Shown here in pieces: positions 1 to 40,307 of a stretch of DNA of 40,308 nt. Origin of the DNA: Escherichia phage buks; sequence record MN850616.1; one strand, written 5' to 3'. The translations under genes and the position numbers were made by a program. Positions within the stretch are counted from its first letter, which is position 1, and each line of letters starts with the position of its first letter. A model generated the notes under the pieces. It was not told the origin of the DNA and did not search any database. It saw only the letters and a program-made list of their open reading frames with translations.

Positions 1-587
1 ATAAACTTCGCTTTACAGTCGATGGTCAGGGTCTTCCCGCCGAAGTTAACGGTCTCGTTATTGCTGAAAGTGTAATCGCGGTCGATAAGAACGCTGTCGA
101 CGGCAGCATCAGCTAATTGCTGTAAAGTGGTAAAATCCGACAACTTAACGGAGTATTTAAATTTCTTATCCGCTTCCGCGCGAAAGGTAATATCTCCGAA
201 CGCGACCCAAGCGGAATCCGAAATGCCGCCTGTCGTAAGAGGTGTCGACGCCGCAGGGATAACTTTCGGCAGGGGGCCACGCCATGCGTAATAGTTACCG
301 TCTCCGCCGTCCTCAATAGGCCAAAGAACCGCTTTGTCCGCGTCGTCAGCTCCCAGGGTCCCGCCGGTTGTGAAGTTGAAAGACGCCGGGGAGAAACCAG
401 CATCACGTAAAACCGCGGGCAGGGTCTTCTGCGTCTGCCCGGTTACCTGGTTAGTGGCGTAGTCGATATCTGCGCCGCCAGCTACACCGCCCTGTTTGCC
501 GGTGATCACCTCGGCTTCGAAAATCTGGTGTTTTTTAGCTACCTGTAAATCGTTAAGTGACAATACATCACCGCAACCGCTGGACAT
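1..587 (-). CDS. Tailspike protein, N-terminal 195 codons (partial; 3-prime part lies beyond the window start)
   Basis: Minus-strand ORF with ATG at 585-587 and AGAGGA RBS 7 nt upstream; hand translation MSSGCGDVLSLNDLQVAKKHQIFEAEV...FRAEADKKFKYSVKLSDFTTLQQLADAAVDSVLIDRDYTF...TIDCKAKF. Residues ~137-195 match, from memory, the start of the P22 tailspike receptor-binding region (EADKKFKYSVKLSDY...LIDRDY...CKAKF). Absent from the ORF track because it is truncated by the window edge. Confidence 0.8.
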   Translation of the reverse strand, partial: MSSGCGDVLSLNDLQVAKKHQIFEAEVITGKQGGVAGGADIDYATNQVTGQTQKTLPAVLRDAGFSPASFNFTTGGTLGADDADKAVLWPIEDGGDGNYYAWRGPLPKVIPAASTPLTTGGISDSAWVAFGDITFRAEADKKFKYSVKLSDFTTLQQLADAAVDSVLIDRDYTFSNNETVNFGGKTLTIDCKAKF

Positions 588-599
588 ATGGCTATCCTC

Positions 600-3158
600 T
601 TAGTTAAAACCGTTATCGAATCCGCTGGAGAACGCACGACCGAAAGGAGGCACGTTGTCAAACTTATAGAAATCCTTGTCATAGTTAAACCCGGTTATTT
701 TGACTGTTCTGTCATCGCCAGGGTCTACCGTAGAAACAAGAATCATCTGAGCATTATGCCTTGCTTCGTTGCCGAATGAAAATTCAGTTTTCAAAGCACT
801 ATTACCAGTGTAAATGGCTTCTTGCGGCACCGACGTCATAATTACTTGTCGGTCATGCGCACCAGGGACTACACGAACACTTTGGACGCCGCCATCTCTC
901 AGCTTGAGAACCAAAGAATGGTCATCTCCGGGTGTGAACTTAACCGGCTGGGATAGCTCTACGGTGAGGCCGTTCACCGCAGTTACGTATCCGTCGTAAG
1001 TAGCCATACGCGAACCCTTAACCACACTAACGGCACGATTCGGAAGGGCAAAAATACCCTCTTCAGTGGCGGTAAACGACACCGAAATTTTCTTTAAAAT
1101 GTTCTTCTGGTGGCGACGGTTTGCCGCCCAGAAAGCCTGCTTATAGTTGCGGATTCCTTTTGAGTCGTAAGTCTCCGTTTTAAGGCCCCCGGTTTCGGGT
1201 ATGGTTATAGTCTCTTTGACGTTCGTCTTAGGGTCTATGTACGAGAATTTAAGGCTGTCAAAAACCTGAGAATCGTTAAATGTTCTGGTCCACTTTTCAG
1301 AAGTACCGGCCTTGCTTCGGTGGGTGAACACCATCTCGGGGCCCATGCGAGGGCGCTCAAAATCGAGAAGGATATCCGCCCCACGCCGATATGGGGTGCA
1401 GAATATGGCGTCTGCTATAGTACTAACTATGTCCTGCATGGTGGTTTTATAGTCATCAAACGTGTAACAAAATTCTCCAGCCTGTTTGTCGCCAAAATAC
1501 GCTTCGACCTCGTTCTGCACAGCAAGTAACTTATCCATGTTGCGTACCGTCAGGTTTAAACCCCCCACATCCGGATCACGCGCCAGGCGGATAAGAGATT
1601 GCACGGCTTGCGTATTGGGGGTCATCGTGTCTTCAAAAACACCATTACCGAGGTATTTGTACACCATTTCAGTAGCAATCATGCGCAACTGCGGTTGCTT
1701 TACTTCCGCGGCACGCGGGGTCTGCTTGCGCATCGAGTGTACTGTTGTTCTGTTGCCGTAGTGTGGGGTGTTGTCACGTGTTTGCCCGTATAAGTTAACG
1801 TACGTTATCTCATCGACTACAGACCCCTCGAAATTAAAGTCCAGGTCTGTTACCCTTCTGGCGCGCACCCGCACCCGTGACACAACCGGCAGGTCGGCGT
1901 AAATAGTGACGCCGTTGTAGTCCGGTGTACGCCCGGACACGGTTCCTTGCGCCGTGTGTATTGGCCCGTAAGGAACGCTATTTTCATCAAGTAGCTGGTA
2001 CTGTATCTCAGCGGTAACGGATGCCAGTGTTTTTGACTTGCCGTTGTCTTTATACATGCCATTTGCGGCCGCAATATTGGCGACTATGCGCTCAACCTCG
2101 GTGCGGTTTATAGACACCCAATCGGTTAATGTTTTCTCATACGTGTTGTCTGGTTGCAGCGAGGCCTCTCCATCACCGCGGAAAAATGAACCGGGTCTTA
2201 TTTCTTGCCACCGCCCGATAAGGCCGCCAGGCACGATAAAGGTAACGGTCCCTTCGGACACGCTGACTACCTGATATCCGCCGCCGGAGAGGTCAACGTC
2301 TGTATTTGTCCACACTGACACCAGCGAAAATGTATCATTAGGCACCAGTACCCCAGAAAAATCCGAACCACCTGTTGGGTCATATATCGTGCCAATGTTT
2401 CCGGACAAAGACGGATACCCGGACATGTAAGAGAAAGAAATGCCCAGACCGTTCGGTGCTTTAAGAACCACGCCGTCAACTTCGTTAGATTCTACGGTAA
2501 TGTATAGGCCTTGCTCTATGGGGTCCCCGACCATGACCTGGGGTGTAGATGTGTTATTCGGCGATGTATATGGTGCGTACACGGCAACCGACGTGCCTGT
2601 TATGTCTGATACGCGGGTGTCCCCGTCAGTTATACCTTCAGGGTGTATGTCGAGGTATCCACGCCCGGCGTCGTAATAGCCGTACTCTACAATTTTACCG
2701 GCGGCGTTAAACACCTTGTAAGTAGACATAAGGTTATTGGGGATGGTTTGCACCGTTCCACAGATGTCGTAACTGCGTTCGTACGGGCGCGCCTTGTTGT
2801 TACGGTCGGTGAGACTGTTGTTCGGGGAATCCGCCTGCGAGTTCGCAAGGTTAGATGACGCCCCTTTCACGGATGGTGATAATAGTTTCGCTAGCGGTTT
2901 AAGGATAACGCTAAAAATCTTCATGACGCCTTTAATAGCGCCACCACCGGCAGATTCCACAATGTGGAAAGTCGCGTTTTCTTTCAGTGCTTCGAAGTCT
3001 TCTGTTACGTCGTTATCTTCTCCGATTTCGTCAATGAAAACACGCACCGGCACCCCGTCCGGAACATGGTTCACGACGAAGTTCATCGGATTATCGCGAT
3101 AACGTTTAACGTCAAATGTGCCGTCTTCGTTGCGGGTATAGTGGATTACTAGCGCCAA
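600..3158 (-). CDS. Tail tip / central tail fibre protein (lambda gpJ-like host specificity protein), 852 aa
   Basis: Large ORF immediately downstream of K/L/M-like tail tip genes and upstream of the tailspike; call rests on size and synteny. Start is TTG at 3156-3158 with GGAG RBS; no in-frame ATG nearby, so start is uncertain. Confidence 0.6.
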   Translation of the reverse strand: MALVIHYTRNEDGTFDVKRYRDNPMNFVVNHVPDGVPVRVFIDEIGEDNDVTEDFEALKENATFHIVESAGGGAIKGVMKIFSVILKPLAKLLSPSVKGASSNLANSQADSPNNSLTDRNNKARPYERSYDICGTVQTIPNNLMSTYKVFNAAGKIVEYGYYDAGRGYLDIHPEGITDGDTRVSDITGTSVAVYAPYTSPNNTSTPQVMVGDPIEQGLYITVESNEVDGVVLKAPNGLGISFSYMSGYPSLSGNIGTIYDPTGGSDFSGVLVPNDTFSLVSVWTNTDVDLSGGGYQVVSVSEGTVTFIVPGGLIGRWQEIRPGSFFRGDGEASLQPDNTYEKTLTDWVSINRTEVERIVANIAAANGMYKDNGKSKTLASVTAEIQYQLLDENSVPYGPIHTAQGTVSGRTPDYNGVTIYADLPVVSRVRVRARRVTDLDFNFEGSVVDEITYVNLYGQTRDNTPHYGNRTTVHSMRKQTPRAAEVKQPQLRMIATEMVYKYLGNGVFEDTMTPNTQAVQSLIRLARDPDVGGLNLTVRNMDKLLAVQNEVEAYFGDKQAGEFCYTFDDYKTTMQDIVSTIADAIFCTPYRRGADILLDFERPRMGPEMVFTHRSKAGTSEKWTRTFNDSQVFDSLKFSYIDPKTNVKETITIPETGGLKTETYDSKGIRNYKQAFWAANRRHQKNILKKISVSFTATEEGIFALPNRAVSVVKGSRMATYDGYVTAVNGLTVELSQPVKFTPGDDHSLVLKLRDGGVQSVRVVPGAHDRQVIMTSVPQEAIYTGNSALKTEFSFGNEARHNAQMILVSTVDPGDDRTVKITGFNYDKDFYKFDNVPPFGRAFSSGFDNGFN

Positions 3159-3514
3159 AATTCAATCTCCGAATAAGTATCTTTAAGGTCTTCCAGACTA
3201 TCCAGTCTAACCTGTCTGGACGCCAGCTCACAGTGGCTAACCATTCCTTCGTAATATACCCCAGCATGCCACACTATTCGTCCCCTATGTTTCACTCCTA
3301 GTAGAACCGCGTCAAAATTCTGCGGTGTGACCGCTCGTACCAGACCTTTCGGATTAGAGTGGCCATCGTCGAAGGCGGCGTCTATTGCCGTTGGGCTTGT
3401 TACATCGAACATCGGGGTCGATAACCCCGCGTCCGCGCGCACATTGCGTACATGATGCCAGCAATTACGACGGCGGAAGTCATACGGCAGACCGGTGTAG
3501 TCATTAATATTCAT
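3149..3514 (-). CDS. Tail assembly protein, gpK-like (possible NlpC/P60-type Cys-His motif)
   Basis: 121 aa; ATGA start/stop overlap with upstream gene; motif RRRNCWHHVRNV...HAGVYY suggests a Cys/His peptidase-like fold; position between L-like and J-like genes. Confidence 0.5.
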   Translation of the reverse strand: MNINDYTGLPYDFRRRNCWHHVRNVRADAGLSTPMFDVTSPTAIDAAFDDGHSNPKGLVRAVTPQNFDAVLLGVKHRGRIVWHAGVYYEGMVSHCELASRQVRLDSLEDLKDTYSEIEFWR

Positions 3515-4026
3515 GACGTCAGTATCCCGCGAAGTAATGGAATCTCTTCCGGGGTCATCAGAATGCCTGTTGCCCGTTGGTTAAGCATCGGTGTGCCAGT
3601 TTCCGCCGTAAATACACCTTTTTCTTGTGTGAGTGTTTGCAACTCATAAACCACCGGGCCGTCGCATGGGTAGGATAGGTCCGTACTCACATAACGCCGG
3701 AAGATGAATTTAGGCAGTTCCTTGTTATCGTAAGGTATACGGTCCATTTCTTCATCGAGAATGTTGAGCACATCCGGCAAAGAGAAAGAGGCGGTCTGGT
3801 CCATATCGTTATTGTTAGCCGCGTTCTTGGCCTCCATCGGCGTACCCTCGAACGTCACTACTTCCCCGGTTTCAAGAGTTGCGGTTAAGTCGTTAACCCC
3901 GCGCACAAGCAACCAGCGCTTCGAAAGAAGAGGGTGCGATATCTCCAGGGTAATAAAATCCATCTCGCCGTCGGGGTTTGATGCTAGCTTGCGACGGTAT
4001 GCCGCTTCTACTGATTCCTGACTCAT
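3511..4026 (-). CDS. Minor tail protein (gpL-like)
   Basis: Start re-set to the internal ATG at 4024-4026 (MSQESVEAAYRR...), which forms an ATGA overlap with the stop of the upstream gene; the track start at 4110 would overlap that gene by 88 nt. Function by synteny only. Confidence 0.5.
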   Translation of the reverse strand: MSQESVEAAYRRKLASNPDGEMDFITLEISHPLLSKRWLLVRGVNDLTATLETGEVVTFEGTPMEAKNAANNNDMDQTASFSLPDVLNILDEEMDRIPYDNKELPKFIFRRYVSTDLSYPCDGPVVYELQTLTQEKGVFTAETGTPMLNQRATGILMTPEEIPLLRGILTS

Positions 4027-4523
4027 TGCATTGGATCCCAAATTCGAGGGAATGTAGTTTGGTACACTCCGTAAGTTTTTAGAAATTCGCCAAGACAATC
4101 GCCGTAGCATCCATATAAGTCGGGCAGATTCTGGTTAAGACAGGCGCTGCCGACTTCCTGGAATGGTGATTTCTCGGCTGTGGCCGTGAAAGTTATTACC
4201 CAGTTCTTCCCGTCGTCGGTGGACTCGTTCCACGTAGATGTTAGAGTAACCTGGTAATCCTCGATACCCTGACCCAAGTCGTGTTTCATCCAGAAACTGG
4301 AAGCCCCTCCGTCTACCTTCTCCATGAAACTGAGGAATGCTTGTCTACCCAGTGGCGACACGACCAGCGTAACGCTAATCGGGAACACATCAAAGTATGT
4401 ATCACGCCCCTGGCGAACCCCGCCACCGGCCAGGTCTACTCGCCACACGTTGTTACCTCGCGTCATCGAGTAGCCTTTCGATACTATCGGCCTCAAAGAG
4501 GCCGGGAAATGGTAATCGCTCAT
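4023..4523 (-). CDS. Minor tail protein (gpM-like)
   Basis: 166 aa ORF directly downstream of the tape measure gene (1-nt gap); function by synteny only. Confidence 0.5.
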   Translation of the reverse strand: MSDYHFPASLRPIVSKGYSMTRGNNVWRVDLAGGGVRQGRDTYFDVFPISVTLVVSPLGRQAFLSFMEKVDGGASSFWMKHDLGQGIEDYQVTLTSTWNESTDDGKNWVITFTATAEKSPFQEVGSACLNQNLPDLYGCYGDCLGEFLKTYGVYQTTFPRIWDPMQ

Positions 4524-4524
4524 A

Positions 4525-6858
4525 TCAATATCCTGGTTGGCCGCGTGTAGCGCGACGTGATTTAGAAATGGCGCTGTTACTATCCAGCAACGCTGAACTT
4601 ACGGTTTCACTGATTATAATACGCAACCGGCCTTCATCGTCGCGTTCTGTTGCAGCAGAATCAATTCTTCCAGTGGTGTTGTTCACGATAGTAACATTAT
4701 CTCCACCGGATTTAGCGCCATTCTCACCCATAATCTGTCGCATCTGCTCCGCCGTTCGGACACGGGAGGCGTTGGCGGGCATAATCACTTCTGGTTTACC
4801 GCGTTCGGCAATAGTAGACATCTGGCCTGCGGCCAGGTTACCACCCTGTTCTCGGGCGGAGCGAATCTTACCTACGTTTGCTAAACCAGCCGCCACCGCA
4901 GCAGCCGCAGCAACAGGCGCCAGATACGGGCCGACTACCGGTATGGCTGCTGTTGATTTATACGCTTCGACCGCTGATGTGTACGTAGCTATGGTCGCCT
5001 GAGCAATTGCAAATGCTTTGTATGCCGTGGAAGCCTCTCCTAGCGCGGCCCCGATGTTACTAGCCATATTACCGAATGCGGCGCCTGTTGCCTTCGCTCG
5101 GTCTAATGCGTAAGTATCATTCATTGCGTTTAGGGTCTGTTGGTAGGTTTCTTCAGCAATCAAACCCTGCGCATGAAAATCGTTAAGTTTTTGTAGCTTG
5201 ACCTCGTACTGCCGGTCTAATTCCGCAAATTCTCCTTCAGCAAGGGCCTGCATCTGAGCGACATACGCATCTGCGGAGAATTGTTTTTCCAGGCGCTCTT
5301 TCTCGCGTTTATCTAACTCAGCCTGGCGGGCCGTATCCGCCTCGAGCATAATCTGTGTCTTAGCGGTTTCGTATTGCTGGTCACTAAGGAGACGGTTGCT
5401 GTAGAACTCCTGTAGCTTAGTAAGTTGCTCTTCTTGGTTAGCTTGTATCTTCTGGAATACGTCGTCGTTAAGGTGGATTGACTGATAATAGAAATCCTCA
5501 GCGGCTTTCTTCTGGCGTTCGAATGCGTCGACGGATTTCTTGGCGGCCTTGTCTGCGGAATCACCTGTAGAACCGCTGTCCTTACCTGATACCTTAAACT
5601 TACCTAACCCCTCGGCCTTAGCTGCTTCTTTATCGATGTCGTAAGCCGCTCGCTTCAGCGCGATAAGGTCTTCCTGAGCTTCTACTTGTTCGCGGAAACT
5701 TTTCCGTGTCAGGTCAGCCACACCCCTTTGAGTATCCATAGCAAGCGCTAACTGGAAGTTAAGGTTCTTGGCCTCAGCTACCGACTCTCCCGGCGTCAAG
5801 GCGGCCTTTACAAGACGTCCCGCATCCTGAGCACCTTTAACCATATCTTCAAAAAACCGCTCCATTGCCGTAAATTCCTGGGCAATGAAGTCCAGCGCAT
5901 CTGCCGCTGACTCAGCTATCGTAGATGCGGTCTCCTCTCCGCTTCCGGTAATGCTTTCACTGGTGTAAGTCCAGGCGGAGTTCAAAGCGTTTAACGCGTC
6001 TGCAACCGCCCCAAACGCCGCGTCGAATGAAGCCTCTATCGCACCCCCAACATCGGATGCCATGTCGCCCCACATCTGCATCTCGGCTACGAACTCACCG
6101 GATGCGACCTGAGCGTTTATCTCCTGTATCAGGTCGTCAATATAACGTAAAGGTTCCGCCAGTGACCCTACATCGAGACTAGTGGCAAGGGTCATCTTCA
6201 ACTGAGACCACGAGTCTTCTGCGCTCGCAATAGCACCATTGAGCGTGTTCGCCTGGTCAGCCATCGCCCCGGCGAAGTTAACGTTGCCTATGTTGAGGAG
6301 ATATCGCTCAATATCGGCAGCGTTTTTCTTAACTACAGTAGTCGTCCCCTGGAAGGTAAATTCGATATCACTTTGGTTCTGCTTGGCCTTAATGCCGAAT
6401 TCTTTCAGACGTTCGAATTCAAAGGTGCTCGCATCCGCGACGGCCTCAATCATCTGGTTAAGGTCTTTACCCATAGCCGATGCGGTGTTGCCATAGGAGC
6501 GGAGCGCTTCTTCTGATGGAGTGAGGCCTAGAGCTACCAGCTTACGGAATCCTTCAACAGCCTGTTCAAGTCCGTAAGGGGTGTCGCGGGCGAAGTCCTG
6601 TAAGATACTCAGGGCTTGCTTTGCGCCTTGCGTGCTTCCCGTTAGTGTTTTCAGGCTGGCGGACATCTTGTCGAGTTGCCGTTGTGACTCGACTAGTTCC
6701 TGCGCCGCTTTATATGCTGTAGCTGCGACAACGGCAGCCAGGCCAGTTACCGCGGCCCCCGCAACTTTCGCAGATTTAGAGAGATTATCAAGACGGTCTG
6801 ATGTGGCCTTCGCGCCTTGTTCGGTTACCTTTACTACTAAGCTAGCTACATCAGCCAT
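4525..6858 (-). CDS. Tail tape measure protein
   Basis: ~777 aa, Ala/Glu/Lys/Gln-rich helical sequence, located directly after the tail chaperone pair. Start re-set to ATG 6856-6858 (MADVASL...) with GAGGG RBS 8 nt upstream; the track start at 6873 overlaps the upstream ORF. Confidence 0.85.
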   Translation of the reverse strand: MADVASLVVKVTEQGAKATSDRLDNLSKSAKVAGAAVTGLAAVVAATAYKAAQELVESQRQLDKMSASLKTLTGSTQGAKQALSILQDFARDTPYGLEQAVEGFRKLVALGLTPSEEALRSYGNTASAMGKDLNQMIEAVADASTFEFERLKEFGIKAKQNQSDIEFTFQGTTTVVKKNAADIERYLLNIGNVNFAGAMADQANTLNGAIASAEDSWSQLKMTLATSLDVGSLAEPLRYIDDLIQEINAQVASGEFVAEMQMWGDMASDVGGAIEASFDAAFGAVADALNALNSAWTYTSESITGSGEETASTIAESAADALDFIAQEFTAMERFFEDMVKGAQDAGRLVKAALTPGESVAEAKNLNFQLALAMDTQRGVADLTRKSFREQVEAQEDLIALKRAAYDIDKEAAKAEGLGKFKVSGKDSGSTGDSADKAAKKSVDAFERQKKAAEDFYYQSIHLNDDVFQKIQANQEEQLTKLQEFYSNRLLSDQQYETAKTQIMLEADTARQAELDKREKERLEKQFSADAYVAQMQALAEGEFAELDRQYEVKLQKLNDFHAQGLIAEETYQQTLNAMNDTYALDRAKATGAAFGNMASNIGAALGEASTAYKAFAIAQATIATYTSAVEAYKSTAAIPVVGPYLAPVAAAAAVAAGLANVGKIRSAREQGGNLAAGQMSTIAERGKPEVIMPANASRVRTAEQMRQIMGENGAKSGGDNVTIVNNTTGRIDSAATERDDEGRLRIIISETVSSALLDSNSAISKSRRATRGQPGY

Positions 6859-7210
6859 CGTTTCTGCCCTCAAAAATGGCGTCTAATCCCATGATAATTT
6901 CAGATTCAAACATCCCTATATTCTGACCTGAAATAGTGCTATACGCCACTAAATCTGACCAACTAAGTTGCTCTCTTGGGTATAGCTTTACGCCGTCGTC
7001 ATCAACGCGGCGGGTGAATTTAACATCACGATACTTCTCAAAAGTGGTGAGTAGTTCAGGGGGGCATTCAGGCCCGGCGTCCTGCGTTGTTTCTCCCGCG
7101 TCTTTTATTACCCCCATAGCGATAAGCGCGGCTTTGTGCCCATCGGCGATACTGTCAAACTTGCGCCTTTCGTGGCGGGTTATGAAGTTCCAACGGGCAA
7201 ACTGAAACAA
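6851..7210 (-). CDS. Tail assembly chaperone extension (gpT-like), probably expressed as a -1 frameshift fusion with 7216-7632
   Basis: ORF in the -1 frame relative to the upstream chaperone; it has only a TTG start, and its frame is open upstream into the last ~15 codons of the chaperone gene; classic G/GT arrangement before the tape measure gene. Confidence 0.4.
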   Translation of the reverse strand: MFQFARWNFITRHERRKFDSIADGHKAALIAMGVIKDAGETTQDAGPECPPELLTTFEKYRDVKFTRRVDDDGVKLYPREQLSWSDLVAYSTISGQNIGMFESEIIMGLDAIFEGRNDG

Positions 7211-37653: not shown

Positions 37654-37845
37654 ATGAAATACGAATATGACCGCAAACCAGCACGTGACATCGTACCGGG
37701 TGACATGATTTTCAATGTTAAGACGCGTAGGCCTGTTGCCGTAGATACAGTATTTGTTGAGTCTAACGGTAAACTGGTTATTGAAGATGCAACCGGTAAC
37801 GTCACGGCGTTCGGGCGGAAGGAATTGGTTCTGGTGGCGAAATGA
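37654..37845 (+). CDS. Hypothetical protein (63 aa)
   Basis: ATG 37654 with AAGGAA RBS; stop overlaps helicase start (ATGA). Confidence 0.45.
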   Translation: MKYEYDRKPARDIVPGDMIFNVKTRRPVAVDTVFVESNGKLVIEDATGNVTAFGRKELVLVAK

Positions 37846-40307
37846 GTAAATTCACTAGAAGGCCTTATCAAAAGCTCATGACCTCGTTCATGCTGCGACA
37901 CCCGCGCTGTAATATCTGGGCAAGTATGGGAAGCGGCAAGTGCCTGAAACGCGGGACTGAAGTTATTATGTTTGACGGTACGACCAAGAAAGTAGAAGAC
38001 GTCATCGTCGGTGACGTGCTTATGGGGCCAGATTCAACGCCTAGAAATGTACTGTCTCTCGGTAGAGGCCGGGAGATGATGTACGAGGTTAAACCGCGAA
38101 AAGGCGAGTCATATACGGTAAACGAAAGCCATATATTATCACTGCGAACTACTACAGGTATCGCAAAAGGTTCATGGCCAGATAACACCGTTTTCGACAT
38201 AAGCGTCCGCGACTGGCTTAAGTTGCCGAAATATGTAACCGGGCCTAATGGGTATCTTAAGGGTTGGCGGGTACCTGTCGATTTTCCAAGGAAAGAGCAG
38301 GACGAGGCTTTATTGCCTCCGTACCTTATGGGGCTATGGCTGGGCGACGGTACTTCGTCGTCTGGGGCCATAACATCAGGAGAGAACGAAAAGGAAATAA
38401 GGGCGTATCTTGAGTCGTACGCAGCACGTAATGGGATGCAAATACGAAAAGAAGGACTTACATGGAGTATATCTCACGGCAACACAGGTCATAAGAAGCA
38501 CGGGTTTACACACGCGCTGAAATCGGCGGGTGTCCTGAACAATAAGCATATACCGCACAATTACAAATGCGGCGACCGGAGACAGCGTTTAGAGTTGCTG
38601 GCAGGGCTTCTGGATAGTGATGGTTACTGCGATTTGTCTAAAGCAGGTTTTGACTGGATTTCGGTAAGCGAGCGACTCGCTGATGATTTTTGCTATCTAT
38701 GCCGTTCTCTTGGTTTCGCAGCTTACAAGAAGAAAACTCGTAAGCGTTGCGCAAACACTGATGTTTGGGGGGATTACTTCCGCGTATCGGTATCAGGCGA
38801 TTTTTCTGATGTACCTTTCGTGCGTGGCCGCCACCAGAATTTACCGAAGCGTAATATTAATAAAAACGTACTTAACGTTGGAATAGAATCTATAACCCCG
38901 GTCGGCGTAGATGATTATTACGGCTTCACTATCGACGGTGACCACCGGTTTCTATTAGGCGACTTCACCGTAACGCACAACACAAGCTCGACAATGTGGG
39001 TGCTTAACCGGTTATTCCGTAATGGTCAGCTTAATGATGACGACCGGGTATTAATCCTCGCCCCGTTGCGTGTTGCGTCGGGTACGTGGCCCGCGGAACA
39101 AACTAAGTGGGGGTTCCCTTGCCTTCGTGTCATCGATGCAACCGGTTCGGAGAAGCGCCGCATAGCGGCGCTGGAGTCGGACGCTAATGTGGTGTGCACT
39201 AACTACGAAGTTATCGAGTGGCTGATTGATTACTACGGCAAAGACGACTGGCCTTTTACTGTTATCGTGGCCGATGAGAGCACGAAACTGAAATCTTTCC
39301 GTAGCCGTTCCGGCGGCAGCAAGAGAGCGAAGGCGCTTAGTAAAGTGGCGTTCGGCAAGGTTAAGCGTTTCATTAACCTGACCGGTACACCATCACCAAA
39401 CGGCCTCAAAGACTTGTGGGGTCAGAACTGGTTCATCGACGCGGGTGAACGCCTTGGGTCTTCATACACGGCCTTTACCGATAGATGGTTTAACTCGGTA
39501 CAGAAAGGCAAATCTGCGATGGCGCGGGAGTACCATGCTCGCCCAGGCGCGGATAACGAGATTCACCAGAAGATGAAGGATATCAGCCTTACCATTGATG
39601 CCGCCGAGTGGTTCGGTTGTGAAGCACCGGTTATTGTACCGGTTGAGATTGACCTGCCGAAGAAAGCGCGTCAAGCCTACATCGATATGGAGGAGAAGTT
39701 ATTCGCGGAACTGGAGAGCGGAGAAGTTGAAGCGGCTAACGCCGCCGCTAAAACGGCTAAGTGCTTGCAGATTGCTTCCGGTGCCGTGTATGTGTCGGGG
39801 CCGGATGGTGAAGCAACGAAAGACTGGGAGAAAGTGCACGACGCGAAACTCGATGCGTTAGAGTCCATTGTCGAGGAGTTGCAGGGTGCGCCGCTGCTGG
39901 TGGCCTATCAGTTCAAGCACGAACTTGAGCGCATTCTTAGGCGATTCCCCCAGGCGCAGGCGTTTGCGAAAGGTGCTAAGGGTAATAAGCAGATGGAATC
40001 TTGGAACCGCGGGGAAATCGAGATTTTGTGCGTGCACCCTGCATCGGCGGGCCATGGTTTGAATTTACAGGACGGCGGGCATCATCTGGCGTTTATTTCG
40101 CAAGGCTGGAACCTGGAGCACTATTTGCAGGTTGTCGAGCGTATAGGTCCTGTACGCCAGAAACAGGCTGGCCACGAGCGTCCAGTGTTCCTGTATCACA
40201 TAGTCGCTAAAGACACGCTGGATGAGGTCGTTGCCGCGCGTACGGACGAGAAAAAATCTGTCCAGGAAGAGTTGCTTAATTATATGAAGAGACGAGGTAA
40301 GAAATGA
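37842..40307 (+). CDS. SF2 (SNF2/DEAD-like) helicase interrupted by an in-frame intein; extein ~474 aa
   Basis: Continuous 821-aa ORF; Walker A GSGK is split from its Thr by a 347-aa insert; after the insert: TSSTMW...LILAPLRVASGTW...VIVADESTKLK...NLTGTPSPN... Confidence 0.85.
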   Translation: MSKFTRRPYQKLMTSFMLRHPRCNIWASMGSGKCLKRGTEVIMFDGTTKKVEDVIVGDVLMGPDSTPRNVLSLGRGREMMYEVKPRKGESYTVNESHILSLRTTTGIAKGSWPDNTVFDISVRDWLKLPKYVTGPNGYLKGWRVPVDFPRKEQDEALLPPYLMGLWLGDGTSSSGAITSGENEKEIRAYLESYAARNGMQIRKEGLTWSISHGNTGHKKHGFTHALKSAGVLNNKHIPHNYKCGDRRQRLELLAGLLDSDGYCDLSKAGFDWISVSERLADDFCYLCRSLGFAAYKKKTRKRCANTDVWGDYFRVSVSGDFSDVPFVRGRHQNLPKRNINKNVLNVGIESITPVGVDDYYGFTIDGDHRFLLGDFTVTHNTSSTMWVLNRLFRNGQLNDDDRVLILAPLRVASGTWPAEQTKWGFPCLRVIDATGSEKRRIAALESDANVVCTNYEVIEWLIDYYGKDDWPFTVIVADESTKLKSFRSRSGGSKRAKALSKVAFGKVKRFINLTGTPSPNGLKDLWGQNWFIDAGERLGSSYTAFTDRWFNSVQKGKSAMAREYHARPGADNEIHQKMKDISLTIDAAEWFGCEAPVIVPVEIDLPKKARQAYIDMEEKLFAELESGEVEAANAAAKTAKCLQIASGAVYVSGPDGEATKDWEKVHDAKLDALESIVEELQGAPLLVAYQFKHELERILRRFPQAQAFAKGAKGNKQMESWNRGEIEILCVHPASAGHGLNLQDGGHHLAFISQGWNLEHYLQVVERIGPVRQKQAGHERPVFLYHIVAKDTLDEVVAARTDEKKSVQEELLNYMKRRGKK
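37941..38981 (+). mobile_element. Intein with LAGLIDADG homing endonuclease domain, inserted in the helicase P-loop
   Basis: Starts with Cys codon TGC 37941-37943 right after GSGK; ends ...FTVTHN (Asn codon 38979-38981) followed by Thr; internal LAGLIDADG-like motifs LMGLWLGDGTSS and LLAGLLDSDGYC; 1041 nt, in frame. Confidence 0.8.

What the first reader, a model, noticed from the sequence alone, without database searches (positions are those of the whole stretch)
1..587. Mosaic tailspike: phage-specific N-terminal anchor joined to a P22-like receptor-binding domain
The first ~136 residues have no resemblance to the P22 tailspike head-binding domain as I recall it. From about residue 137 (nt ~179 downward) the sequence EADKKFKYSVKLSD...LIDRDY...GGKTLTIDCKAKF closely tracks the start of the P22 tailspike beta-helix. 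This implies domain shuffling between a siphovirus anchor and a podovirus-type O-antigen-cleaving receptor domain, and points to Salmonella O-antigen as receptor. Only 195 codons are inside the window.
Basis: partly seen in the sequence, partly recalled or inferred. Interest (0 to 1): 0.4.

Follow-up and report, generated by a model that had tools for sequence, protein, structure and literature searches.

The report
Jerseyvirus tailspike gene, 5′ end
This is the start of the well-known tailspike gene of a Jersey-like Salmonella phage: a long-tailed-phage attachment domain fused to a P22-family sugar-cutting spike that recognises the Salmonella O-antigen. It is real but ordinary and already annotated.

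Summary
Window 587..1 (− strand) is an open frame of 195 codons. It is the 5′ 29% of the 676-aa tailspike gene of a phage 99.98% identical to Salmonella phage blauehaus (Jerseyvirus, Guernseyvirinae).

- **Similarity to P22.** Residues 135-195 match P22 gp9 residues 114-174 at 72% identity (E=4e-26). Residues 1-134 show no similarity to the P22 head-binding domain (E=4.2).
- **Full gene.** In the blauehaus record, homology to the P22 family covers the whole receptor-binding part (Pfam PF09251, positions 2-551 of 552, E=3e-106). The P22 catalytic residues Glu359/Asp392/Asp395 are conserved as E377/D410/D413.

1. The anchor is not phage-specific. Residues 1-92 are shared across Guernseyvirinae, and residues 93-133 are the widespread Tail_spike_N knot domain.
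2. Only the "neck" (residues 134-205) is close to P22. The body (206-676) is the 9NA/Kuttervirus type: 84% identical to those and 29% to P22. Most Jerseyviruses instead carry a P22-type body. The swap point lies at gene nt ~562-596, at the window edge.

The anchor probably docks on the distal tail protein, as in Shigella phage Sf11; this is inferred, not shown. Everything essential is already published and annotated, so interest is low.

The parts
1..587 (-). 5′ part (codons 1-195, plus 2 nt of codon 196) of the tailspike gene. The full gene is 676 codons in phage blauehaus (MT074473 27899-29929).
   Evidence: Open frame. 100% identical to blauehaus_46 'tailspike protein'. PHROG 29731 tail spike, E=1e-133.
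595..601 (-). Shine-Dalgarno AAGAGGA, 7 nt upstream of the ATG at 587, overlapping the stop of the tail-tip gene. The spike is the last gene of the tail operon and has no promoter of its own.
   Evidence: Sequence read. The promoter/terminator scan found nothing above chance.
396..587 (-). Residues 1-64: the Guernseyvirinae-conserved anchor proper (MSSGCGDVLSL.DLQ.AKKHQIFEAEVITGK…). It has a predicted helix at 11-29, and Cys5, K18 and K19 are nearly invariant.
   Evidence: Alignment A1. AF2 model, pLDDT ~90 over residues 11-130. 93% identical to Kagunavirus K1ind2 over residues 1-60. No PDB sequence match.
189..395 (-). Residues 65-133: small knot-like domain. Pfam Tail_spike_N PF18668 matches residues 93-132. 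The domain is shared with 9NA, Kuttervirus, CBA120 TSP1/3/4, G7C gp63.1 and Sf11 gp13.
3..188 (-). Residues 134-195: the in-window part of the conserved neck (134-205), i.e. the start of the P22-family receptor-binding part. It ends in the invariant CKAKF(IGDG) motif, where the body types are exchanged.
   Evidence: 72% identical to P22 gp9 114-174, E=4e-26. 95% to SETP3, 73% to 9NA. Nucleotide identity to SETP3 collapses from gene nt ~588.
600..3158 (-). 852-aa J-like tail-tip protein, immediately upstream of the spike gene.
   Evidence: PHROG 469 tail protein. 30% identical over 811 aa to 9NA gp54, E=3e-81. Matches Sf11 gp14 (9occ_E), E=2e-15.
4023..4523 (-). 166-aa distal tail protein (first gene after the tape measure) with a predicted long C-terminal helix (124-157). 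It is the proposed docking partner of the spike's N-terminal helices.

Best explanation
**What it is.** The region is the 5′ 29% of the tailspike gene of a Jersey-like Salmonella siphophage, essentially phage blauehaus. By homology the protein is a homotrimer built from four modules:
1. Residues 1-~64: an N-terminal helical anchor conserved across Guernseyvirinae.
2. Residues ~65-133: a small knot-like Tail_spike_N domain, probably a hinge.
3. Residues 134-205: a neck, the start of the beta-helix, conserved in all P22-family spikes.
4. Residues 206-676 (outside the window): a right-handed beta-helix body and C-terminal domain of the 9NA/Kuttervirus subtype, with the endorhamnosidase catalytic residues E377/D410/D413.

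**How it works.**
- *Shown for the homologues P22, 9NA and Det7; inferred here.* The spikes bind the Salmonella O-antigen (serogroups A, B, D1) and cleave its Rha-alpha-1,3-Gal bonds. This moves the tail tip down to the outer membrane.

**Evolution.** Two exchange points are visible:
- An old one at residues ~117-133 joins the anchor to unrelated receptor-binding families in sister genera.
- A sharper one at codons ~188-199 (the CKAKFIGDG motif, at the window edge) separates the 9NA-type body carried by blauehaus from the P22-type body carried by most Jerseyviruses.
For: **Identity of the gene**
- 100% identical to blauehaus over window 1-3200; annotated 'tailspike protein'; Jerseyvirus; host S. 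Enteritidis PT1.

**Membership of the P22 family**
-.
- 3RIQ (9NA spike): 1052 bits over residues 134-675.
- Catalytic residues conserved. Their role in P22 is stated in bioRxiv 10.1101/2021.09.20.461090.

**Module boundaries**
- Against SETP3: 99 / 95 / 90 / 32%.
- Against 9NA: 20 / 44 / 71 / 84%.
- Against P22: 20 / 10 / 69 / 29%.
- Against K1ind2: 78 / 39 / 17 / 16%.
- (Segments are residues 1-92 / 93-133 / 134-205 / 206-676.)

**Breakpoint**
- No mismatch to SETP3 from gene nt 562 to 587, and dense mismatches from nt 588.
- BLASTN homology to SETP3 is lost between L001 4420 and 5991.

**Anchor co-diverges with tail proteins while the body does not (blauehaus vs 9NA)**
- Anchor 28%.
- Tail tip 30%.
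- DTP 20%.
- Body 84%.

**Docking model**
- The Sf11 structure shows spike helices 4-59 bundling with one DTP helix (PMC12724387).

**Literature**
- 9NA spike activity and frequent horizontal exchange of this domain: PMC4153490.
- Similarity of the Jersey spike to P22 noted by Anany 2015, as cited in PMC13243795.
Against: - Codons 196-676 are not in the window. Their type is taken from the near-identical blauehaus record. The last 26 nt in the window are common to both body types, so the window alone cannot say which body follows.
- The docking model is indirect. The DTP model has only moderate confidence (pLDDT 64.6). No complex was modelled. The blauehaus and Sf11 DTPs, and the first ~55 spike residues, show no sequence similarity.
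- PMC13243795 states that the attachment of the Jersey fibre has not been clarified.
- No enzymatic or adsorption data exist for this particular protein.
Confidence: 0.9

Rival explanations
1. The receptor-binding part is of the P22 type proper, reflecting a direct and fairly recent exchange between a P22-like podovirus and this siphovirus. This is what the strong in-window similarity suggests.
For: 72% identity to P22 gp9 over residues 135-195. Other Jerseyviruses such as SETP3 do carry a body 81% identical to P22.
Against: Beyond residue 205 the blauehaus protein is 29% identical to P22 but 84% identical to the 9NA and Kuttervirus (Maynard) spikes. The best PDB match is 3RIQ at 1052 bits, against ~317 bits for P22. 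The in-window neck is about equally conserved in all subtypes (67-74%), so it does not discriminate.
Confidence: 0.05
2. There is no recombination. The gene descends vertically from one ancestral spike, and the N-terminus has simply evolved faster.
For: All four modules have detectable, if distant, homologues in the 9NA spike over its full length.
Against: The identity profiles are step-like and contradict each other between partners: 98% then 32% against SETP3, and 27% then 84% against 9NA. The nucleotide breakpoint is sharp within about 30 nt. The same anchor is joined to unrelated receptor-binding families, for example an HK620-like one in K1ind2.
Confidence: 0.03
3. The anchor attaches the spike to a component other than the distal tail protein, for example the N-terminal region of the 852-aa J-like tip protein or one of the small hub proteins. 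The resemblance to Sf11 would then be coincidental.
For: The attachment of the Jersey fibre is explicitly unresolved (PMC13243795). There is no sequence similarity between the blauehaus and Sf11 DTPs or between the spikes' first ~55 residues. The tip protein's first 271 residues form a group-specific PHROG (31307) and could be a docking site.
Against: The DTP model's best structural match is the Sf11 DTP, and the match includes about 40 residues beyond the lambda-gpM-like core. Both partners have predicted helices of suitable length. In siphophages the DTP is the usual platform for side fibres (PMC12724387).
Confidence: 0.3

Closest known systems
Tailspike of Salmonella siphophage 9NA (gp55; PDB 3RIQ; Nonanavirus)
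   Same: The body and neck are 84% and 71% identical, aligned end to end (residues 134-675 vs 2-543 of 3RIQ). The catalytic residues are the same. It is an endorhamnosidase on S. Typhimurium O-antigen. Its Tail_spike_N domain is 44% identical. The anchor is distantly homologous (28%, E=6e-12), including Cys near the N-terminus. The tail-tip gene set is syntenic and homologous (proteins of 166/171/121/852 aa vs 167/168/119/840 aa).
   Different: The anchor and all tail proteins are only 20-30% identical. The phages belong to different genera and have different genome sizes (42 vs 53 kb). In 9NA the spike gene is inverted relative to the tail genes.
Tailspikes of other Jerseyviruses (SETP3 gp32, Jersey, SE2, wksl3)
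   Same: The gene position is the same. The anchor, knot domain and neck are 90-99% identical (residues 1-205). They belong to the same P22 family and use the same hosts.
   Different: Their body is the P22 subtype (81% identical to P22) and only 32% identical to blauehaus. The switch occurs at gene nt ~562-596. About 25 distinct sequenced Jerseyvirus-sized phages carry the blauehaus/9NA-type body, against a few hundred with the N-terminus.
P22 tailspike gp9 (Lederbergvirus; PDB 1TSP, 2XC1)
   Same: The receptor-binding part is homologous throughout (E~1e-93). The neck is 69% identical. The catalytic Glu359/Asp392/Asp395 are conserved. The O-antigen receptor class is the same.
   Different: The P22 head-binding domain (residues 1-108) is absent and replaced by an unrelated anchor. 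The body is only 29% identical. P22 spikes attach to a podoviral tail hub, for which no homologue was noted in this genome.
Kuttervirus (Vi1-like myophage) P22-like tailspikes (Maynard gp39; Det7, PDB 2V5I)
   Same: The Maynard body is 84% identical, and its Tail_spike_N domain is 44% identical.
   Different: They sit in a contractile-tail phage with a multi-spike branched adsorption complex. The N-terminal ~90 residues are unrelated (17%).
Shigella siphophage Sf11 tailspike gp13 with DTP gp17 (PDB 9OCC; PMC12724387)
   Different: The receptor-binding body is Sf6-like. The first ~55 spike residues and the DTPs have no detectable sequence similarity. The Sf11 DTP is 457 aa with a large extra appendage, against 166 aa here.

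Membership tests
P22 tailspike family (Pfam PF09251, endorhamnosidase receptor-binding part) | Sequence match to the family profile above Pfam's gathering score, covering the whole domain | tested here: met
   Window fragment: 71.3 bits vs cut-off 25, profile positions 2-59. Full blauehaus gene: 356.3 bits, positions 2-551 of 552.
P22 tailspike family (Pfam PF09251, endorhamnosidase receptor-binding part) | Trimeric right-handed parallel beta-helix fold | tested here: met
   Met by homology only: 84% identical, gap-free alignment of residues 134-675 to the crystal structure 3RIQ. No model of this protein's body was made.
P22 tailspike family (Pfam PF09251, endorhamnosidase receptor-binding part) | Catalytic residues Glu359, Asp392, Asp395 (P22 numbering) | tested here: met
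   They align with E377, D410 and D413 within conserved motifs (RVGESGVKTY, YYDGIDINAD). These residues lie outside the window, in the blauehaus record.
P22 tailspike family (Pfam PF09251, endorhamnosidase receptor-binding part) | Binding and cleavage of Salmonella O-antigen (Rha-alpha-1,3-Gal) | not testable with these tools
   Inferred from 9NA, P22 and Det7 biochemistry (PMC4153490, PMC5380687) and from the recorded hosts.
Full-length P22 gp9 orthologue | N-terminal head-binding domain (P22 residues 1-108) | tested here: not met
Guernseyvirinae / Jerseyvirus tailspike | Conserved N-terminal anchor MSSGCGDVLSL… | tested here: met
   351 phage records are at least 90% identical over residues 1-134. 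Kagunavirus spikes are 70-79% identical (alignment A1).
Guernseyvirinae / Jerseyvirus tailspike | Gene is last in the tail module, directly downstream of the J-like tip protein | tested here: met
   Window gene order is TMP (4525-6873), DTP, 171-aa protein, 121-aa protein, tip protein (600-3158), spike (587..1). SETP3, ER18 and K1ind2 have the same order.
Tail_spike_N domain (Pfam PF18668; CBA120 TSP / G7C gp63.1 N-terminal knot domain) | Profile match above the gathering score, and the same fold | tested here: met
Sf11-type docking of a tailspike on a distal-tail-protein adaptor helix | Distal tail protein with a helix extending from the gpM-like core | tested here: inconclusive
Sf11-type docking of a tailspike on a distal-tail-protein adaptor helix | Spike N-terminal helices forming a 3+1 helical bundle with the DTP helix | not testable with these tools

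The most novel reading that the evidence does not exclude
Two ideas go beyond what is published, and my evidence does not exclude either.

**(a) A standing crossover site.** The invariant CKAKFIGDG patch at the end of the conserved neck may act as a standing crossover site. P22-type and 9NA-type bodies would be swapped there among Jerseyvirus, Nonanavirus, Kuttervirus and P22-like phages. A 17-nt stretch is identical between blauehaus and 9NA at that point.

**(b) A Cys-based lock on the distal tail protein.** The spike may be locked onto the distal tail protein by a helical bundle, as in Sf11, and additionally by a cysteine cluster. Cys5 of the spike would contribute three copies per trimer, with Cys128 and Cys139 of the DTP helix. 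All three cysteines are conserved from Jerseyvirus to 9NA despite 20-28% overall identity. They could form a shared metal site or disulfides, which would give a defined plug-in socket for engineering spikes.
Probability: 0.15. Interest if true: 0.4.

Novelty: already known. Interest (0 to 1): 0.12.

Why it matters
Tailspike modules decide which Salmonella serogroups a phage can attack, so knowing the body subtype (9NA-type here) helps predict host range and choose phages for biocontrol cocktails.

The finding itself adds nothing new. The genome is deposited and annotated. P22-like spikes on siphoviruses and myoviruses have been described since 2008-2015. Frequent horizontal exchange of this domain is established.

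The only modest added value lies in three points: a precise map of four modules and two junctions; the note that Jerseyviruses carry two alternative body subtypes swapped at one motif; and a testable proposal for how the anchor docks. A 2026 paper still lists that docking question as unresolved for phage Jersey.

Tried and rejected
- **Anchor vs solved structures.** phmmer of residues 1-93 against all PDB sequences gave nothing credible (best E=0.2, a lipoprotein). The anchor proper therefore has no solved sequence relative.
- **Direct homology to Sf11.** BLASTP of the blauehaus DTP and the 171-aa hub protein against Sf11 gp17 and gp16 gave no similarity (E=0.2 and 4.1). phmmer of the DTP against PDB gave no hit. 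A sequence-based transfer of the Sf11 docking mode was therefore rejected, and only the fold-level argument remains.
- **Other features in the region.** Rfam on the whole window gave no RNA family. Promoter and terminator scans around the gene start, and downstream of the gene in blauehaus, found nothing above the shuffled expectation. The short ORFs on the + strand and in other frames within 1-587 were treated as chance, because the tailspike frame is conserved across hundreds of phages.
- **Homologue search for the N-terminus.** The search for homologous proteins returned only short, partial proteins. These were adequate for the AF2 alignment but useless for domain-architecture counts, so tblastn against phage genomes was used instead.
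- **Literature.** The Det7 structure paper (PMC2258939) is not held. The P22 catalytic residues were cited from another paper.
- **Complex modelling.** A spike-DTP complex model was not possible.

Full report
**1. What is in the window**

On the − strand an open frame starts at ATG 587-585 and runs to base 1 without a stop: 195 codons plus two bases. AAGAGGA lies 7 nt upstream and overlaps the stop codon of the preceding gene. No promoter or terminator signal above chance lies nearby. The gene is therefore the last cistron of the tail operon.

Megablast shows that window 1-3200 is 100% identical to Salmonella phage blauehaus. That record is MT074473/NC_073173 (Jerseyvirus, Guernseyvirinae; host S. 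Enteritidis PT1; from wastewater), and the ORF there is annotated 'tailspike protein'. Over 13,515 compared bases the window differs from that record at 3 positions.

The window is a circular permutation of the 41,993-bp genome and lacks 1,685 bp. Those missing bases hold codons 196-676 of the spike and a small downstream ORF. I used the blauehaus record as a proxy for the rest of the gene, which is 676 aa and intact.

**2. Check of the observation**

- The fragment's residues 135-195 align with P22 gp9 residues 114-174 at 44/61 identities (72%), E=4e-26.
- Against all PDB sequences, the P22, 9NA and Det7 spikes score E=1e-19 to 1e-22.
- Pfam PF09251 scores 71.3 bits against a cut-off of 25.
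- Residues 1-134 have no similarity to the P22 head-binding region (E=4.2).

**3. Does the P22 similarity extend?**

Yes. The full protein matches PF09251 over profile positions 2-551 of 552 (E=3e-106). It matches P22 gp9 over residues 134-675 vs 113-664 (E~1e-93). The residues that form the P22 active site are Glu359, Asp392 and Asp395 (stated in bioRxiv 10.1101/2021.09.20.461090). They align with E377, D410 and D413 inside conserved motifs.

The best match by far, however, is the crystal structure of the siphophage 9NA spike: 3RIQ, 1052 bits, gap-free over residues 134-675.

**4. Module map**

A seven-protein alignment gives step-like identity profiles. The proteins are blauehaus, ER18, SETP3, 9NA, Kuttervirus Maynard gp39, P22 and Kagunavirus K1ind2. 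Identity to blauehaus by segment:

| Partner | 1-92 | 93-133 | 134-205 | 206-676 |
|---|---|---|---|---|
| SETP3 | 99% | 95% | 90% | 32% |
| K1ind2 | 78% | 39% | 17% | 16% |
| 9NA | 20% | 44% | 71% | 84% |
| Maynard gp39 | 17% | 44% | 67% | 84% |
| P22 | 20% | 10% | 69% | 29% |

SETP3's own body is 81% identical to P22. The protein therefore has four modules:
- a subfamily-wide anchor;
- a widespread knot domain (Pfam Tail_spike_N, 46.6 bits);
- a neck conserved in every P22-family spike;
- a body of the 9NA/Kuttervirus subtype.

"Closely tracks P22" is true only of the neck, which happens to be the part inside the window.

**5. Junctions**

*Junction with unrelated receptor-binding families.* Spikes of sister genera with unrelated receptor-binding parts share the anchor only up to residues 117-133. 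One example is K1ind2, annotated with an HK620-like C-terminus.

*Junction between body subtypes.* Within Jerseyvirus the nucleotide identity to SETP3 is 83-95% up to codon 200 and ~45% afterwards. There is no mismatch from gene nt 562 to 587, and mismatches are dense from nt 588. BLASTN homology is lost between L001 4420 and 5991. The crossover thus lies in the codons for the invariant CKAKFIGDG motif, where blauehaus and 9NA share 17 identical nucleotides. This point coincides, within ~9 nt, with the window edge.

*Distribution.*
- About 25 distinct Jerseyvirus-sized phages carry the 9NA-type body at ≥88% identity. Examples are ER18, LSPA1, S102 and LPSE1.
- Their recorded hosts include S. 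Paratyphi A, S. Typhimurium and S. Enteritidis.
- The same body also occurs in Kuttervirus (~157 kb), in 9NA-like phages and in ~72-kb phages.
- 351 records carry the N-terminus at ≥90% identity.

**6. The anchor and how it may dock**

*The Sf11 precedent.* The Sf11 paper shows spike residues 4-59 of each trimer forming a four-helix bundle with one helix of the distal tail protein gp17. Six trimers sit on the hexameric ring (PMC12724387).

*Co-divergence.* Between blauehaus and 9NA, anchor divergence tracks tail-protein divergence while the body does not:
- anchor 28%;
- tip protein 30%;
- DTP 20%;
- body 84%.

*Conclusion.* I therefore favour Sf11-like docking on the DTP helix. This step is inferred. 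The DTPs and the first ~55 spike residues have no sequence similarity to their Sf11 counterparts, and no complex could be modelled.

**7. Function**

The 9NA, P22 and Det7 spikes bind Salmonella O-antigen and are endorhamnosidases that cleave the Rha-alpha-1,3-Gal bond (PMC4153490; PMC5380687). Given 84% identity to the 9NA enzyme, conserved catalytic residues and the recorded hosts, the same activity and receptor are the best inference for this protein. It has not been tested here.

**8. Comparison with what is known, and novelty**

- P22-like spikes on a myovirus (Det7, 2008) and on a siphovirus (9NA, 2012) are classic cases.
- The SETP3 record annotates its spike as similar to the C-terminus of the P22 spike.
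- Anany et al. 2015 noted the similarity for Jersey, as cited in PMC13243795.
- The window's own gene is deposited and annotated.

The finding is therefore already known. The refinements here are incremental: four modules, two junctions, two alternative body subtypes within the genus, and a docking hypothesis.

**9. Caveats**

- The body subtype rests on a proxy record.
- The docking model rests on monomer predictions of moderate confidence.
- The direction of transfer (podovirus to siphovirus, or the reverse) cannot be inferred.

Noticed in passing
window 37842-40307 (+): The 821-aa SNF2-type helicase carries an intein-like insert: Hom_end-associated Hint domain (aa 34-108, E=9e-23) plus a LAGLIDADG homing-endonuclease domain (aa 248-305). 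The SETP3 record annotates the same fusion.
   Followed up: partly
window 1 and 40308 (edges); L001 4316-6000: The 1,685 bp missing from the window nearly coincide with the cassette that differs between blauehaus and SETP3 (L001 4420-5991). The spike-side edge is within ~9 nt of the recombination breakpoint. The source contig may have broken at a polymorphic receptor-binding cassette.
   Followed up: partly
window 4023-4523 (−) and 573-575 (Cys5 codon of the spike): Cys128 of the distal tail protein is invariant (35/35) and Cys139 is in 34/35 homologues. Both are present in 9NA gp51, which is only 20% identical. Cys5 of the spike is present in 28 of 31 aligned N-termini, including 9NA. Co-conserved cysteines in two proposed partners are unexplained; they could form a metal site or a disulfide.
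   Followed up: partly
window 600-6873 (−) vs L003 25260-32055: The tail-tip gene sets of blauehaus and 9NA are syntenic: tape measure, then proteins of 166/171/121/852 aa vs 167/168/119/840 aa. The tip protein and the DTP were shown to be distantly homologous (30% and 20%). The phages are in different genera, and in 9NA the spike gene is inverted.
   Followed up: partly
window 3511-4110 (−): The mechanical ORF is 199 aa from an ATG at 4110 and overlaps the upstream gene by 88 nt. The blauehaus record starts it at 4026 (171 aa). The PHROG match begins at residue 34 of the long form and the Pfam DUF1833 match fits the short form, which favours the short start.
   Followed up: partly
phage records PP389045, PQ766629, OR844942: Records labelled Pseudomonas phage vB_PsS_LDT325, Proteus phage ABTNLP14 and Enterococcus phage Efm 3-10 carry this Salmonella-type spike at 86-96% identity. 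The host labels look doubtful (mislabelling or contamination).
   Followed up: no
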